Positions 31,039 to 37,200 of a DNA stretch of 63,953 bases are shown here, piece by piece; the first letter of the stretch is position 1; every line of letters starts with the position of its first letter. The position numbers and the translations under genes are program-made. Source of the stretch: Rubrobacter sp. (lineage in GTDB: Bacteria; Chloroflexota; Chloroflexia; Thermobaculales; Thermobaculaceae); contig JADDPP010000066.1 of the NCBI GenBank assembly GCA_016781845.1, positions 1-63,953 on the forward strand. Direction: 5' to 3'. The notes under the pieces are model-generated. The model saw only the letters and a program-made list of their open reading frames with translations, ran no database searches and was not told where the DNA came from.

Positions 31039-31063
31039 GGGGGCAGGTTTTACACCTGCCCCC
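31039..31063 (-). terminator. Strong hairpin after the SOS-box operon (GGGGGCAGG-7 nt-CCTGCCCCC)
   Basis: Perfect 9-bp GC-rich stem lying 37 nt past the stop of ORF 31100..31366(-). There is no clear U-tract, as in the other hairpins noted here. Confidence 0.4.
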
Positions 31064-31099
31064 GGACCCTGCGACGTCTGCACCTGTACCTGACGGGTG

Positions 31100-31366
31100 C
31101 TAGCTCGCCCGCCGAAGCCGCGCCTGGTCTTCGTACCGCGCGAGCTTGTCGCATGCCTGCTCGTACTGGTGCAGCAGGCGCAGCCAGAACTGCTCCCACT
31201 GCTCGACGTTCTCACCAGCCTGGCGCATCTGCTCTATCTGCCGGCTGCCAGTCTCCAGGCGGTCTACCAGCGTATTGCGCTGCGCGACGAGGTGAGATAT
31301 CTCATCCCGCTCGCGGGAAGTTCGACCCGATGGGGACGGCTGAACTGTCTTCTCAGGAATACTCAC
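31100..31366 (-). CDS. Small coiled-coil protein, second gene of the LexA-box operon
   Basis: 88 aa. The GTG start lies 6 nt after AGGAGG and 19 nt after the stop of the upstream gene. It is heptad-like and Gln/Glu/Arg-rich (LVDRLETGSRQIEQMRQAGENVEQWEQFWLRLLHQYEQ). Confidence 0.55.
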   Translation of the reverse strand: MSIPEKTVQPSPSGRTSRERDEISHLVAQRNTLVDRLETGSRQIEQMRQAGENVEQWEQFWLRLLHQYEQACDKLARYEDQARLRRAS

Positions 31367-31385
31367 GCCGGACCTCCTGCCGCAA

Positions 31386-32015
31386 CTACGCTACCTTGTC
31401 CTGCTTGAGCAGGTCAATGAACTGCGACGCCTCCCAGCGCGAGAGCTCCTGTGGCGCATAGCCGTAGATGTCCTTGCACTTGGCGTCGAGCTCGCCCTTG
31501 CTCAGGCCGAGGTTGCCCTGTCCGATCGCGTAAATGGCCTTGAGCTGCTTCTCGGTCGCGGAGCGCGGGCCAAGTCCACGTGGCTCCGGGTCCGAAGGCT
31601 CGAACTGGGTGACGTTTCCAACGGGGCGCGAGCTGTTGGCGTACATGTCGAGCGAAGAGGCTGGCGCAGGGGCGACAACATCATCCTCGCCACCGAGCTC
31701 CTCAAGGGCCGTGACGCCGATGTTCACCGCGTCGCGCAGGGCGCGCGCCTTGGCTCGGGTCTCCGCCATCCTGATCGTATGCTGCCTGATAAGAGGTGGC
31801 ACGTTCTCAGGGCTCGCGTCGCCGATCCCGGTGAAGCGCCCCTTCTCCGTGTCAACCGTCGCCTGCACGACCGCCACGTTTCCGTTCTCCGCGTTCGGAA
31901 GCTGGAGCAGCGTAGTACTTATCCCCTTGAGCCCCTGCGAGTGTGCCTCTTCAAGAAGACCCGCGTAAAGCACGAAGTGCTTGCCCTGCCGCTCTATTAT
32001 GAACTCTTTCTTCAC
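31386..32015 (-). CDS. Putative single-strand-annealing-like protein (Rad52/Sak-type core) with a C-terminal helical module
   Basis: 209 aa with a GTG start. The order is helix (YAGLLEEAHSQGL), three strands (ISTTLLQL / VAVVQATVDT / GRFTGIGDAS), then helix IRMAETRAKARALRDAVNIG, mirroring the Rad52/Sak/DdrA core (..SDALKRA..GIG). An acidic/Pro linker follows, then ATEKQLKAIYAIG...LSRWEASQFIDLLKQ. Confidence 0.6.
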   Translation of the reverse strand: MKKEFIIERQGKHFVLYAGLLEEAHSQGLKGISTTLLQLPNAENGNVAVVQATVDTEKGRFTGIGDASPENVPPLIRQHTIRMAETRAKARALRDAVNIGVTALEELGGEDDVVAPAPASSLDMYANSSRPVGNVTQFEPSDPEPRGLGPRSATEKQLKAIYAIGQGNLGLSKGELDAKCKDIYGYAPQELSRWEASQFIDLLKQDKVA

Positions 32016-32036
32016 CGCTCGTTACCTCACTACAAA

Positions 32037-32050
32037 AGAACAAATGTTCT
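32037..32050 (-). promoter_or_regulatory. LexA (SOS/Cheo) box AGAACATTTGTTCT
   Basis: Perfect 14-nt palindrome. GAACATTTGTTC differs at one central base from the Gram-positive consensus GAACATATGTTC. It starts 7 nt downstream of the -10 hexamer and ends 21 nt upstream of the GTG. Confidence 0.7.
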
Positions 32051-32057
32051 AATTGAC

Positions 32058-32086
32058 AGTATATAAGGCACAAGGTTCGATGTCAA
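32058..32086 (-). promoter_or_regulatory. Sigma70-type promoter TTGACA-17 nt-TATACT
   Basis: On the minus strand the -35 TTGACA is at 32086-32081, the spacer is exactly 17 nt, and the -10 TATACT is at 32063-32058. It sits in an AT-rich island in otherwise GC-rich DNA. Confidence 0.65.
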
Positions 32087-34296: not shown

Positions 34297-37200
34297 GTGG
34301 CGGCCGAGTTTGTTCATCTCCACCTGCATAGCGACTACTCCCTACTGGACGGGCTGGGCAAGATCAAGAATTACGTTTCGATGGCGAAAGAGTATGGGAT
34401 GCCTGCGCTCGCGCTGAGCGACCACGGCGTGCTGTACGGCGCGTTCGACATGTACTCCATTGCGAAGAAGCAGGGCATCAAGCCGATTATCGGCTGCGAG
34501 ATGTACGTGGCCGCTCGCACCATGCACGACAAGCAGGGCAAGCTGGACTCGGAGTACTACCACCTGCTGGTGCTGGCGCGCGACTACGAGGGCTACCAGA
34601 ACCTCCTGAAGCTGGTGAGCCTCGCCCATATGGAAGGGTATTACTACAAGCCGCGTATAGACCACGACACGCTGGCGAGGCACTCCAAGGGGCTCATCGT
34701 CACCTCTGCGTGTCTCGGAGGCGAGGTATCCCAGTTGCTGCTGCGCGGCCACGACAAGGAGGCGCGCGAGAGAGCGGACAAGTACCGCTCGATAGTCGGG
34801 CGGGAAAACTACTTCATCGAGGTTCAGGATCACCCCATGGAGGAGCAGCAAGTTGCGAACCGCAAGCTGATCGAGCTCGCAAGTGATCTGGAGATACCAC
34901 TCGTTGCCACGTGTGATGTCCACTACCCGCGCAAGGAGGACGCGGAGATTCACGACGTCCTGCTCTGCGTCCAGACGGGGCGGATGGTCTCCGACGAGAA
35001 CCGTATGAGGATGAGCGCGGATAGCTTCTACCTGCGCTCCCCGCAGGAGATGGAAAGGTCGTTCGGGGAACTGCCGGAGGCACTATCGAACACCCTCGCC
35101 ATAGCCGAGATGTGCGATATCTCGATCCCGACCGGCAAGTGGATCCTGCCGCATTACGACGTGCCGGAGGGCCACACGCCTGAGACGTATCTGCGCGAGC
35201 TGTGCGAGCAGGGGCTGTCCCGTCGGTACGAGACGGTGACGCCAAAGATACGCGAGCGACTGGAATATGAGCTGGACATTATCGAGAAGAAGGGCTATCC
35301 AACATACATGCTCATCGTCCAGGACTTCGTGAACTGGGCGAGACAGCAGGAGATAGCGGTCACGAGCCGCGGCTCCGCGGCGGGAAGCCTCGTGTCATAC
35401 CTCATCAACATCACCAGTGCGGACCCGCTCGAGTATGACCTGCCTTTCGAGCGCTTCCTTACGGTACACCGCCCGAGCCCTCCAGACATAGACATGGACT
35501 TCGAGGACTCCCGGCGTGAGGAGGTCATCCAGTATGTGACGCGCAAGTACGGCCAGGATAAGGTGGCGCAGATCATCACCTTCGGAACGATGGAAGCACG
35601 CGCCGCCGTTCGGGATGTGGGCCGCGTGCTCGGGCTCTCCTACGGCGATTGCGACGCGGTGGCGAAGATGATCCAGCAGGGGAGTTCCCTCGCAGATACG
35701 CTCGACTCCTCTTCCGCGCTGCGGGAGTGGCGCGACCGTGACCCTCAGATACGCCGTCTGCTCGACTACGCCGCCCGGCTGGAAGGCGTCACCCGCCATG
35801 CTTCCACGCACGCCGCCGGAGTCATCATCTCGCGCGAGCCACTGATGAACTACGCGCCCGTGCAGAAGGAGGCGAGCGGGAACAAGCCGCTCATTCAGTA
35901 CAACATGACGGCGGCGGAGAGCATCGGCCTGCTGAAGATGGACTTTCTTGGCCTCGCCAACCTCTCCATCCTCGGCCGTGCCGTCAAGACAATCAAACAG
36001 ACCACGGGCCAGGACATTAATCTTGATATGCTGCCTCTCGACGACGCGACGACGTATGAGCTGCTCTCATCGGGTGAGACTACCGGGGTGTTCCAGCTGG
36101 AATCCGCAGGCATGCGCCGCTACATCAAGGACCTGAAGCCCACGAATATCCGCGACATCGCGGCGATGATCAGCCTGTACCGGCCAGGTCCAATGGATAT
36201 GATCCCGACGTACATCGAGCGCAAGCACGACACGTCCAAGGTAAGCTACCTGGTACCTCAGCTCGAAAGCATCCTCAAGAACTCGTTCGGCGTTCTGGTC
36301 TACCAGGACGATATCCTGCAACTCTCCATAGAGGTGGCGGGGTACACCTGGGAGGAAGCCGATAAGCTGCGCAAAGCCGTCGGCAAGAAGATCAAAGAGG
36401 AGCTCGACGCGCAACGCGAGAAGTTTGTTAAGGGTTGCCAGGCTCATGGAGGGCTGTCTGCCGCAAAAGCGAACGAGCTTTGGGAGTGGATGGAGCCGTT
36501 CGCCCGTTACGGCTTCGGAAAGGCCCACGCCGCGGCGTACGCTCTGGTCGCGTATCAGACGGCGTACCTCAAGGCTAACTACACGTCCGAGTACATGAGT
36601 GCGTTCCTCACAGTCGCCGTGGGCAACGCGGAGAAGATCGTCGCTGGTATCTCCGAGTGCAAGCGGATGGGTATTGATGTTTTGCCGCCGGACATCAACA
36701 GGAGTGAGGAGGGATTCGCGCTCGAGCCAGGTGAGCATGGCGAGGGCAAGCCAGTGCCTATCCGCTTCGGTCTGGGCGCTATCAAGAACGTTGGTTCTGG
36801 CCTCATTCAAGCGATCCTGAACGCGCGCGGGAAGCTGCCGGAGAAACAGTTCAAGTCCCTCGACCACCTGTGCCAGCAGGTTGACGGCAGACTCGTGAAC
36901 AAGCGCGTGCTGGAAAGCCTCATCAAGGCGGGCGCAATGGACGCGCTCGGCACCCGCGCACAGCTGCTGGCGGTGCTCGACGACGCCATGGCGATCGGAC
37001 AGCGGGCGCAGAAGGCGAGCGGCGCGGGACAGATGAGCCTGTTCGGCAGCTCTGCGGCGCATTCCGAGGACGTGTACGTGCCGAGCGTTATCCTGCCCGC
37101 CGTGCCGGATACCCCACGCGAGGAGCAGCTCTCCTGGGAGAAGGAGATGCTAGGACTCTACATAACAGAACACCCTCTAACCGCTGCTCTTGCAGGGAAC

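What the first reader, a model, noticed from the sequence alone, without database searches (positions are those of the whole stretch)
31039..32086. Two-gene operon behind a textbook promoter and LexA box, encoding a Rad52/Sak-like annealing-protein candidate outside any prophage
Seen in sequence, on the minus strand. The promoter is TTGACA-17 nt-TATACT. Seven nt further on is the perfect palindrome AGAACATTTGTTCT, and then the GTG start of a 209-aa ORF. An 88-aa coiled-coil ORF follows 19 nt later with its own AGGAGG. A 9-bp GC hairpin at 31039-31063 closes the unit. Established knowledge: GAAC-N4-GTTC (Cheo box, consensus CGAACATATGTTCG) is the LexA operator of Gram-positive bacteria and, as I recall, of green non-sulfur bacteria. 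A box over the transcription start site implies SOS repression. Inference: the N-terminal 100 aa of the first protein has the order helix, beta, beta, beta, long basic helix (IRMAETRAKARALRDAVNIG). This is the order of the Rad52/Sak/DdrA single-strand-annealing core (..SDALKRA..GIG). The flanking genes are housekeeping (gpsA, a two-component system, dnaE) and there are no phage genes. So this looks like a chromosomal, damage-inducible recombination or repair module with an uncharacterised small partner.
Basis: partly seen in the sequence, partly recalled or inferred. Interest (0 to 1): 0.65.

Follow-up and report, generated by a model that had tools for sequence, protein, structure and literature searches.

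The report
SOS-controlled host Rad52-like annealing protein gene
A soil Chloroflexota chromosome carries an unannotated gene for a Rad52-like DNA strand-annealing protein, of a type normally seen in phages, behind a strong promoter blocked by a LexA-type DNA-damage operator; the gene and its operator are conserved across the phylum, so this looks like an unrecognised bacterial repair function.

Summary
On the minus strand there is a TTGACA-17-TATACT promoter. Seven nt downstream is the 14-bp palindrome AGAACATTTGTTCT. A 209-aa ORF and an 88-aa ORF follow, then a 10-bp GC hairpin.

ORF1 matches no Pfam or NCBIfam family. It belongs to a large family named only 'hypothetical protein' where a name was seen (3,462 clusters at 50% identity). 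Members occur in Chloroflexota, Rubrobacterales and a few phages.

An AlphaFold model gives a hairpin-helix-three-strand-long-helix N-domain, a disordered linker and a C-terminal three-helix bundle. The best solved-structure match is human Rad52. The C-domain superposes on the Red-beta C-terminal domain. Nearly all named viral matches are annealing proteins. In two phages the homologue sits directly after a Mu Gam gene, and in one it is followed by SSB.

The operator is a strong phylogenetic footprint. 18 of 34 Chloroflexota orthologues have an exact GAAC-N4-GTTC upstream, and 29 of 34 have one with at most one mismatch. Background is 0.002 and 0.06 per 160 nt. None of 38 viral copies has the box.

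Flanks are housekeeping genes and are syntenic across species. ORF2 is restricted to one clade and is not a general partner. LexA binding, damage induction and annealing activity remain untested.

The parts
32058..32086 (-). Sigma-70-type promoter: TTGACA (32086-32081), 17-nt spacer, TATACT (32063-32058). A TCGAAC half-site follows the -35 directly (32080-32075).
   Evidence: Sequence. Promoter scan 11 of 12, 1 found against 0.3 expected. Equivalent TTGAC-N17-TAnnnT promoters lie upstream of many Chloroflexota orthologues.
32037..32050 (.). Perfect 14-bp palindrome AGAACATTTGTTCT. It is a Cheo-type (GAAC-N4-GTTC) putative LexA operator that starts 7 nt after the -10, so it covers the expected transcription start.
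   Evidence: An exact core is present upstream of 18 of 34 Chloroflexota orthologues, and a core with at most 1 mismatch upstream of 29 of 34. Background in the same loci is 0.0023 and 0.064 per 160 nt. It is absent upstream of 38 viral homologues.
31692..32015 (-). ORF1 N-terminal domain (aa 1-108): beta-hairpin, helix, three strands, long basic helix (invariant R82, E85-T-R-A-K-A-R-A92, R94, D95). Putative Rad52-type ssDNA-annealing core.
   Evidence: Alignment A1. AlphaFold model with block means of 90-98 for residues 21-90 and lower values (62-83) at both ends of the domain. Foldseek top PDB hit Rad52 5jrb at E 8.5e-4, plus Sak 8qe9 and Mgm101 9yi7. Viral annealing-protein hits.
31569..31691 (-). 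ORF1 linker (aa 109-149): variable in length and sequence, predicted disordered.
   Evidence: pLDDT below 50 for residues 102-149. The alignment is gappy here.
31386..31568 (-). ORF1 C-terminal three-helix bundle (aa 150-209, plus stop). Resembles the Red-beta C-terminal domain. Putative docking module for SSB or a nuclease.
   Evidence: pLDDT 93-97 for residues 151-200 and 88 for the last block. Foldseek against Red-beta C-terminal domain entries 6m9k and 8tg7: TM 0.66-0.72, rmsd 1.8-2.2 A. Weak DUF3072 hits in 10 of 53 family members.
31100..31366 (-). ORF2, an 88-aa protein that reads as helical (two-helix hairpin; no structure was predicted) with its own AGGAGG (31378-31373), 19 nt after ORF1. 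A clade-restricted accessory gene of unknown role.
   Evidence: 11 clusters, all 88-89 aa, at least 64% identical. Conserved full-length alignment A4. Present downstream of ORF1 only in L001-L005 and L068.
31039..31063 (-). GC-rich hairpin (10-bp stem, 5-nt loop) 36 nt after the ORF2 stop. Probable transcript end, with no U tract.
   Evidence: Fold gives -29.9 kcal/mol, z -4.5. The terminator scan did not call it because it lacks a T run.

Best explanation
ORF1 encodes a host-chromosomal single-strand annealing protein of the Rad52/Sak/Erf/RecT (dsRBD-like) superfamily. It belongs to a sequence family that is not yet annotated.

The N-terminal domain (aa 1-108) would oligomerise and bind resected ssDNA along the invariant basic helix (R82, R87, K89, R91, R94) and the hairpin arginine R9. 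It would then pair complementary strands. A flexible linker tethers a three-helix bundle resembling the Red-beta C-terminal domain. By analogy, that bundle docks onto the SSB C-terminal tail or a resection nuclease.

Transcription starts from a near-consensus sigma-70 promoter. A GAAC-N4-GTTC operator covers the start site. LexA is proposed to sit there in undamaged cells. After DNA damage, RecA-stimulated LexA self-cleavage would release the ORF1-ORF2 transcript, which ends at the GC hairpin. [quoted passage not shown] This would be useful in desiccation- and radiation-exposed soil bacteria.

Shown: the sequence features, family conservation, fold similarity, phage synteny, operator conservation and non-prophage context.

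Inferred: LexA as the binding protein, damage induction, oligomerisation, annealing, and the role of the C-domain.

ORF2 is a fast-evolving, clade-specific accessory with no assigned role.
For: **Fold**
- The AlphaFold model has two confident domains.
- Among 350,542 PDB chains the best Foldseek match is human Rad52 (5jrb, E 8.5e-4, probability 1.00). Also listed are 5xrz and 8rjw (Rad52), 8qe9 (phage 80-alpha Sak) and 9yi7 (Mgm101).
- The C-domain superposes on Red-beta C-terminal domain entries 6m9k and 8tg7 at 1.8-2.2 A.
- 57 viral models match at E < 1e-3. Of the 50 listed, the named matches are ten annealing-protein names (RecT x3, Sak3 x2, Rad52 x2, ERF x2 and one generic 'DNA single-strand annealing protein') and one exonuclease VIII PDDEXK-domain protein.

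**Phage homologues and synteny**
- Sequence homologues in phages occupy the annealing-protein slot. In Paenibacillus phage API480 the order is Mu Gam (PF07352, 1.7e-24), then the homologue, then SSB.
- In viral contig L090, Mu Gam (9.7e-32) lies directly upstream.
- Phage phiT1 gp34 is annotated 'DNA repair and recombination protein'.
- PMC8093625 describes gam-erf-ssb as the usual module. It also places Erf, Sak3, Rad52 and RecT in the dsRBD-like fold clan, which explains the dsRBD hits.

**Operator**
- Exact and near-exact boxes are strongly enriched upstream of Chloroflexota orthologues. Most lie just after a -10 hexamer.
- Across all loci held at that point (L001-L088, roughly 0.8 Mb) nearly all exact boxes are at this gene.
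- 0 of 38 viral copies have the box.
- GAAC-N4-GTTC is the established LexA motif of Firmicutes and Actinobacteria (PMC3323433, PMC3091678). From my own memory, it is also the motif in Dehalococcoides.

**Context**
- Neighbours are housekeeping genes.
- The same gene order holds in L083 at 64% protein identity.
- Other orthologues sit in unrelated housekeeping contexts.
- GC content is native.
- There are no hits to defence-system models.
Against: - No sequence-level link to any recognised annealing-protein family. ORF1 hits no Pfam family at E <= 1. Ten divergent phage members hit none of the annealing-protein families either.
- hhalign against human RAD52 is not significant.
- A profile search of PDB sequences finds nothing relevant.
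- Whole-chain TM-scores to Rad52 are low (0.25-0.41). Small dsRBD, Rv1738 and HPF domains superpose on the core about as well, so the fold alone is not specific.
- An N-domain-only model was poor (pLDDT 53) and its fold search was uninformative.
- No lexA or recA was available from this or a related Chloroflexota genome, so I could not show that the same box marks known SOS genes.
- Rubrobacter orthologues use a different palindrome, so LexA control is not universal in the family.
- No nuclease or SSB gene is adjacent in host loci.
Confidence: 0.6

Rival explanations
1. ORF1 is a damage-inducible nucleic-acid-binding protein with the dsRBD-like fold, but it does not anneal strands. It could protect DNA ends as reported for Deinococcus DdrA, bind RNA or ribosomes like HPF or Rv1738-type proteins, or modulate RecA or SSB.
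For: dsRBD, Rv1738/Rv2632c and HPF domains match the N-domain core with TM 0.5-0.7 and rmsd 3-5 A. There is no sequence membership in any annealing-protein family. No exonuclease partner is encoded nearby.
Against: Named viral structural matches are almost all annealing proteins and extend over both domains. Phage homologues sit between Gam and SSB. The C-domain resembles the Red-beta C-terminal domain. Rad52 is the top PDB hit.
Confidence: 0.2
2. The palindrome is the operator of a repressor other than LexA, or a structural element. In that case the operon is regulated but not by DNA damage.
For: No lexA gene or second SOS promoter could be examined. Operator variants occur (GATC, GTAC and GCAC half-sites). 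Rubrobacter orthologues are apparently controlled by a different palindrome shared with an adjacent wHTH gene.
Against: The site matches the experimentally established Gram-positive LexA motif exactly (PMC3323433, PMC3091678). It keeps that form across much of a phylum. It is also present upstream of the homologue in a phage of a Bacillaceae host, a group in which this motif is the known LexA box. No local regulator gene accompanies the Chloroflexota loci.
Confidence: 0.12
3. The two genes are a decayed prophage or mobile-element remnant with no host function, and the box is a leftover phage regulatory site.
For: The family has phage members. ORF2 is a narrow-range small gene.
Against: There are no phage genes in the flanks. 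Gene order is conserved with a 64%-identical orthologue. 334 species genomes encode a relative. The N-domain is under strong purifying selection, with 45 invariant positions over the whole protein in 53 sequences, 39 of them in the N-domain. GC content is native. Viral copies lack the box.
Confidence: 0.05

Closest known systems
Rad52 N-terminal domain and phage Sak/Sak3/Erf annealing proteins (Pfam clan DSRM: PF04098, PF06378, PF04404, PF03837)
   Same: The predicted topology is the same: hairpin, helix, three strands, and a long helix carrying conserved basic residues. Rad52 is the best PDB match. Named viral matches are these families. Phage homologues occupy the Gam-X-SSB slot.
   Different: No detectable sequence similarity to any of the four Pfam families. 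Most members are host-chromosomal and appear vertically inherited rather than phage-borne.
DdrA of Deinococcus radiodurans (host-encoded, damage-induced Rad52 homologue; PMC515370)
   Same: A bacterial chromosomal Rad52-like protein placed under a DNA-damage regulon in stress-tolerant bacteria.
   Different: ORF1 does not match the Rad52 family model PF04098. That DdrA itself falls under that model is my recollection; PMC515370 says only that it is a Rad52 homologue. DdrA is controlled by the Deinococcus radiation/desiccation response rather than by a LexA box (own knowledge). The R. radiotolerans genome paper reports ddrA-D as absent from that genome (PMC4148983), yet Rubrobacter species carry the present family.
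Red-beta of phage lambda (C-terminal domain, PDB 6m9k and 8tg7)
   Same: A two-domain layout: annealing core, linker, small three-helix C-terminal domain. The C-domains superpose at 1.8-2.2 A with TM 0.66-0.72. In Red-beta that domain binds lambda exonuclease and the SSB C-terminal peptide (PDB entry titles).
   Different: Sequence identity is only about 21% and the Foldseek E-value about 0.1. No exonuclease gene is adjacent. The interaction partner here is unknown.
Cheo-box LexA regulon of Gram-positive bacteria
   Same: A GAAC-N4-GTTC palindrome overlapping the promoter, conserved in orthologous promoters.
   Different: The flanking bases are A/T (AGAAC...GTTCT) rather than C/G. The regulated gene, an annealing protein, is not part of the classical core set (recA, uvrA, ssb, ruvC as listed in PMC3091678).

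Membership tests
Rad52-superfamily single-strand annealing proteins | Core fold: beta-hairpin, helix, three-stranded sheet, long helix with conserved basic residues | tested here: met
   AlphaFold model elements: E6-9, E12-15, H17-26, E31-38, E48-56, E59-67, H74-107. Block means are 90-98 for residues 21-90. Invariant residues R9, R82, R87, K89, R91, R94.
Rad52-superfamily single-strand annealing proteins | Closest structural relatives are known annealing proteins | tested here: met
   Top PDB hit is Rad52 at E 8.5e-4, with Sak and Mgm101 also listed. 57 viral hits at E < 1e-3, whose named members are annealing proteins. Caveat: whole-chain TM is 0.25-0.41, and dsRBD or HPF domains fit the core about equally well.
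Rad52-superfamily single-strand annealing proteins | Sequence match to a family model (PF04098 Rad52_Rad22, PF04404 Erf, PF06378 Sak3, PF03837 RecT) | tested here: not met
   ORF1 has 0 Pfam families at E <= 1. The 53 members of alignment A1 have none of these at E <= 0.1. Ten divergent phage members have none at E <= 1. hhalign against human RAD52 gives probability 0.1.
Rad52-superfamily single-strand annealing proteins | Ring or filament oligomer; ssDNA binding and annealing activity | not testable with these tools
   No multimer prediction or biochemistry was available.
Rad52-superfamily single-strand annealing proteins | In phages, placement in a recombination module (Gam, exonuclease or SSB neighbours) | tested here: met
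   API480: Mu Gam, homologue, SSB. L090: Mu Gam directly upstream. Only 2 of about 40 viral loci were shown to have this arrangement.
LexA (SOS) regulon, Cheo-box type | GAAC-N4-GTTC palindrome overlapping the promoter or start site | tested here: met
   Site at 32037-32050, starting 7 nt after the -10.
LexA (SOS) regulon, Cheo-box type | Operator conserved in orthologous promoters | tested here: met
   18 of 34 exact and 29 of 34 with at most 1 mismatch, against background of 0.0023 and 0.064 per 160 nt. 0 of 38 viral copies.
LexA (SOS) regulon, Cheo-box type | The same box upstream of lexA, recA or uvrA in the same genome, and a lexA gene present | not testable with these tools
   No lexA or recA in the window or in any Chloroflexota locus held.
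LexA (SOS) regulon, Cheo-box type | LexA binding and induction by DNA damage | not testable with these tools
   Needs EMSA and expression data.
Red-beta C-terminal domain | Three-helix bundle at the C-terminus of an annealing protein that binds exonuclease or the SSB tail | tested here: inconclusive
   TM 0.66-0.72 and rmsd 1.8-2.2 A, but E about 0.1 and 21% identity. Binding is untested.
Prophage or mobile element | Flanking phage or mobility genes, atypical composition, patchy location | tested here: not met
   Housekeeping flanks. Synteny with L083. Native GC content.

The most novel reading that the evidence does not exclude
This is a vertically inherited bacterial 'Rad52' that forms a core part of the DNA-damage response in two stress-tolerant lineages. 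In Chloroflexota it is wired to LexA. In Rubrobacter, where at least one strain lacks LexA, it is wired to a dedicated STAS-like/winged-helix regulator through a different palindrome. It would provide strand-annealing repair of double-strand breaks, much as DdrA and DdrB do in Deinococcus. The phage copies would be offshoots of, or donors to, the same family.
Probability: 0.35. Interest if true: 0.75.

Novelty: new variant of a known kind. Interest (0 to 1): 0.6.

Why it matters
Annealing proteins of the Rad52 type are regarded as eukaryotic or phage proteins, and Deinococcus DdrA is the main host-encoded bacterial exception.

This is a large family that carries only 'hypothetical protein' names. 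It is conserved in the chromosomes of Chloroflexota and Rubrobacterales. In Chloroflexota it sits behind a conserved LexA-type operator. If the reading is right, it adds a strand-annealing arm to the SOS response of a major soil phylum.

It would also offer a candidate explanation for part of the desiccation and radiation tolerance of these groups. The Rubrobacter radiotolerans genome paper reported that no DdrA-like genes were found there (PMC4148983).

Finally, the family is a new source of compact annealing proteins for recombineering in high-GC or thermophilic hosts.

Tried and rejected
- **Sequence searches for ORF1.** Pfam, NCBIfam and PADLOC gave nothing. PHROGs gave only an unnamed family, phrog_22961.
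- **PDB sequence searches.** Neither the single sequence nor the profile gave a relevant hit.
- **hhalign.** The N-domain profile against human RAD52 was not significant. I checked that my recalled RAD52 sequence is correct.
- **N-domain-only model.** The AlphaFold model had pLDDT 53, so its Foldseek search is uninformative.
- **Transitive link through divergent phage members.** None reached a known annealing-protein Pfam family.
- **Positive control for LexA.**
  - tblastn with B. subtilis LexA and E. coli RecA found only a LexA-like gene in one Rubrobacteraceae locus.
  - Walking out of the window by exact-protein look-up failed twice.
  - I could not retrieve the Dehalococcoides LexA paper.
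- **Other GAAC-N4-GTTC sites.** The sites in the window (9912, 36786) and in L022 lie between convergent genes or inside coding regions, and I judged them chance.
- **ORF2 as a conserved partner.** Rejected: it occurs in 6 of the 127 loci then held, and in none of the other Chloroflexota loci.
- **SSB adjacency in host loci.** None found.
- **Literature.** I found no paper describing this family or any Rubrobacter damage transcriptome.
Full report
**1. Observation**

- TTGACA lies at 32086-32081, followed by a 17-nt spacer and TATACT at 32063-32058. The promoter scan scores this 11 of 12. It is the only site in the region, where 0.3 are expected by chance.
- Seven nucleotides downstream lies the perfect 14-bp palindrome AGAACATTTGTTCT (32050-32037).
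- GAGG (32028-32025) precedes the GTG start of a 209-aa ORF (31386-32015).
- Nineteen nucleotides after its stop, AGGAGG and GTG open an 88-aa ORF (31100-31366).
- Thirty-six nucleotides after that stop is a 10-bp GC stem with a 5-nt loop (31063-31039). Its free energy is -29.9 kcal/mol with z = -4.5, and it has no U tract.

The core GAAC-N4-GTTC occurs three times in the window against 0.85 expected. One of the other two sites lies between convergent genes. The other is inside dnaE and is not conserved in a syntenic relative. Only the site at 32037 looks meaningful.

**2. Context**

Pfam confirms the neighbours. On one side are GpsA, PurA and GyrA. On the other are an OmpR-type response regulator, a histidine kinase and DnaE.

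A relative whose protein is 64% identical has the same gene order: PolX, DnaE, sigma factor, kinase, regulator, ORF1 homologue, GpsA, PurA, GyrA. It lacks ORF2. Other orthologues sit among unrelated housekeeping genes. GC content is uniform across the locus. No phage or mobility genes are present, so this is not a prophage.

**3. The ORF1 family**

ORF1 hits no Pfam or NCBIfam model, and only an unnamed PHROG. It is nevertheless a member of a large family.
- 5,695 proteins match in the word-indexed search.
- 3,462 clusters at 50% identity match an N-domain profile.
- 334 species genomes encode a relative. The best 80 are Chloroflexota (Chloroflexia, Thermobaculum, Dehalococcoidia) and Rubrobacterales, including cultured Rubrobacter taiwanensis.
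- Where sources give a name it is 'hypothetical protein', apart from one evidently spurious IMG label on the R. taiwanensis protein.

The alignment shows three parts.
- The N-domain (aa 1-108) is very conserved, with an invariant stretch R-x-x-ETRAKARA-x-RD-x-x-N-x-G.
- The linker is variable.
- The C-domain of about 55 residues is conserved and weakly resembles DUF3072.

**4. Fold**

With the 53-sequence alignment, AlphaFold gives two confident domains separated by a disordered linker. Block means are 90-98 for residues 21-90 and 93-97 for residues 151-200.
- N-domain: beta-hairpin, helix, three strands and a 34-residue helix.
- C-domain: a three-helix bundle.

Foldseek against the PDB ranks human Rad52 first (5jrb, E 8.5e-4). 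It also lists two further Rad52 entries, the phage 80-alpha Sak protein and yeast Mgm101. The C-domain superposes on the Red-beta C-terminal domain at 1.8-2.2 A.

Against predicted viral structures there are 57 matches below 1e-3. Every named one is an annealing protein (Sak3, ERF, RecT, Rad52) apart from one exonuclease VIII PDDEXK-domain protein.

The PDB list also contains dsRBD, Rv1738 and HPF domains with good local superposition. This is expected, because Erf, Sak3, Rad52 and RecT are classified in the dsRBD-like fold clan (PMC8093625). It also means the fold by itself is not specific.

By eye, ORF1 aligns with Rad52 element by element:
- GKHFVLYAGLLEEAH with GQKVCYIEGHRVINLA;
- GRFTGIGDASPEN with GSYHEDVGYGVSEG;
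- RMAETRAKARALRDAVNIG with [20 protein letters not shown].

This is not statistically significant. By sequence, the family is distinct from all recognised annealing-protein families.

**5. Phage relatives**

Four phage records (three distinct phages) and 39 viral contigs encode homologues.
- In Paenibacillus phage API480 the homologue lies between a Mu Gam-like gene (1.7e-24) and SSB.
- In viral contig L090 a Mu Gam gene (9.7e-32) ends one base before it.
- Phage phiT1 annotates it as a DNA repair and recombination protein within the replication module.

Gam-annealase-SSB is the usual arrangement for Erf and Sak4 modules (PMC8093625).

Phage versions keep the N-domain but swap the C-terminal module. 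Some have the Red-beta-like bundle and others have zinc ribbons. This fits an annealing core joined to exchangeable partner-docking tails.

Together with the fold, this makes the annealing-protein assignment the best-supported reading. I put it at about 0.75.

**6. The operator**

I examined the 160 nt upstream of 34 Chloroflexota orthologues.
- 18 carry an exact GAAC-N4-GTTC, and 29 carry one with at most one mismatch.
- In the remaining 284 kb of the same loci the rates are 0.0023 and 0.064 per 160 nt.
- Four of the five without a match have CGCAC-N4-GTGC-type palindromes at the same place, just after a -10 hexamer; the fifth (L012) has none.
- Across all loci held at that point, nearly all exact boxes are at this gene.
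- None of 38 viral copies has a box within 300 nt. The box is therefore a property of the chromosomal promoters, not of the gene's 5' end.

GAAC-N4-GTTC is the experimentally established LexA motif of Firmicutes and Actinobacteria (PMC3323433, PMC3091678). From memory, I believe it was also shown for Dehalococcoides, but I could not retrieve that paper.

The homologue in phiT1, a phage of a Bacillaceae host, also has a perfect core box 144 nt upstream.

The gap in this argument is that no lexA or recA gene was available from any Chloroflexota sequence in hand. LexA as the binding protein therefore remains an inference. I put it at about 0.75-0.8.

**7. Rubrobacter**

The Rubrobacter orthologues lack the Cheo box. 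Instead the palindrome CTCACT-N5-CAGTGA appears twice per locus.
- One copy is upstream of the ORF1 homologue.
- The other is upstream of the adjacent gene, which encodes a STAS-like (DUF4325) plus MarR-type winged-helix protein. That gene is itself preceded by an HATPase/STAS protein.

R. radiotolerans RSPS-4 has no lexA, and its genome paper reported ddrA-D as absent (PMC4148983). The same gene therefore seems to be held under tight control by a different, local regulator where LexA is dispensable. This supports the idea that its expression must be conditional. It also shows that LexA control is lineage-specific.

**8. ORF2**

ORF2 is a real gene. There are 11 clusters, all 88-89 aa, with invariant residues spread along both putative helices.

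It occurs only downstream of ORF1 in the window's clade and, as the C-terminal part of a 140-aa protein, in one more distant Chloroflexia locus. It is absent from the syntenic L083. It has no family or defence-system match.

I treat it as a clade-specific accessory of unknown role. It could modulate the annealing protein, or it could be an unrelated SOS function.

**9. Verdict**

The most likely mechanism is a LexA-repressed, damage-induced, host-encoded annealing protein of the Rad52 superfamily, with a Red-beta-like docking domain. Confidence in the compound claim is about 0.6.

The main rivals are:
- a non-annealing role for the same fold (0.2);
- a non-LexA repressor (0.12);
- a phage remnant (0.05).

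The closest known systems are Rad52, Sak and Erf proteins (same fold, different sequence family). Deinococcus DdrA follows the same logic of a host-encoded, damage-induced Rad52-like protein, but in a different family and regulon.

I rate it a new variant of a known kind, with moderately high interest.

Noticed in passing
L040 4306-4322 and 4930-4946; the same pair in about 40 Rubrobacterales loci (e.g. L023 4942 and 4338): Rubrobacter orthologues carry a different palindrome, CTCACT-N5-CAGTGA, twice. One copy is upstream of the ORF1 homologue. The other is upstream of the adjacent DUF4325 (STAS-like) plus MarR-type wHTH gene, which is preceded by an HATPase_c+STAS protein. This looks like a dedicated regulator that replaces LexA.
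   Followed up: partly
L009, L014, L031, L051 (CGCAC-N4-GTGC); L008, L011, L015, L020 (GATC-N4-GTTC); L018, L058 (GTAC-N4-GTTC), all just after the -10: The operator half-site varies systematically between Chloroflexota lineages while keeping its position. This suggests co-evolution with the repressor's recognition helix. The GTAC form resembles the cyanobacterial LexA box.
   Followed up: no
window 36785-36798: A second perfect AGAAC-N4-GTTCT 14-mer lies inside the dnaE coding region. It is absent from the syntenic dnaE in L083, so it is probably chance.
   Followed up: partly
window 32075-32080: A TCGAAC half-site directly follows the -35 hexamer and is conserved in L001-L004. It may be a third LexA half-site or simply conserved spacer.
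   Followed up: no
L087 4848-4859 (Rossellomorea phage phiT1): A perfect GAAC-N4-GTTC box lies 144 nt upstream of the phage homologue gp34, between it and a transcriptional regulator gene. None of the 38 IMG/VR viral homologues has such a box.
   Followed up: partly
L091, L092, L114, L118, L122 (C-terminal CxxC...C tails); L117 (N-terminal SWIM finger); L090, L123 (Red-beta-like tail): Phage members of the family keep the N-domain but exchange the terminal modules.
   Followed up: partly
L004, L038, L077: Contigs labelled Rubrobacter sp., delta proteobacterium and Proteobacteria carry loci typical of the other clade (Chloroflexota-type for L004 and L077, Rubrobacter-type for L038). These are probably MAG binning errors.
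   Followed up: no
L065 1663-2253: A LexA-like gene (30% identity to B. subtilis LexA) lies 2.7 kb upstream of the ORF1 homologue in one Rubrobacteraceae chromosome. Its own upstream region has an AAACATGTGTTT palindrome, not the CTCACT motif.
   Followed up: no
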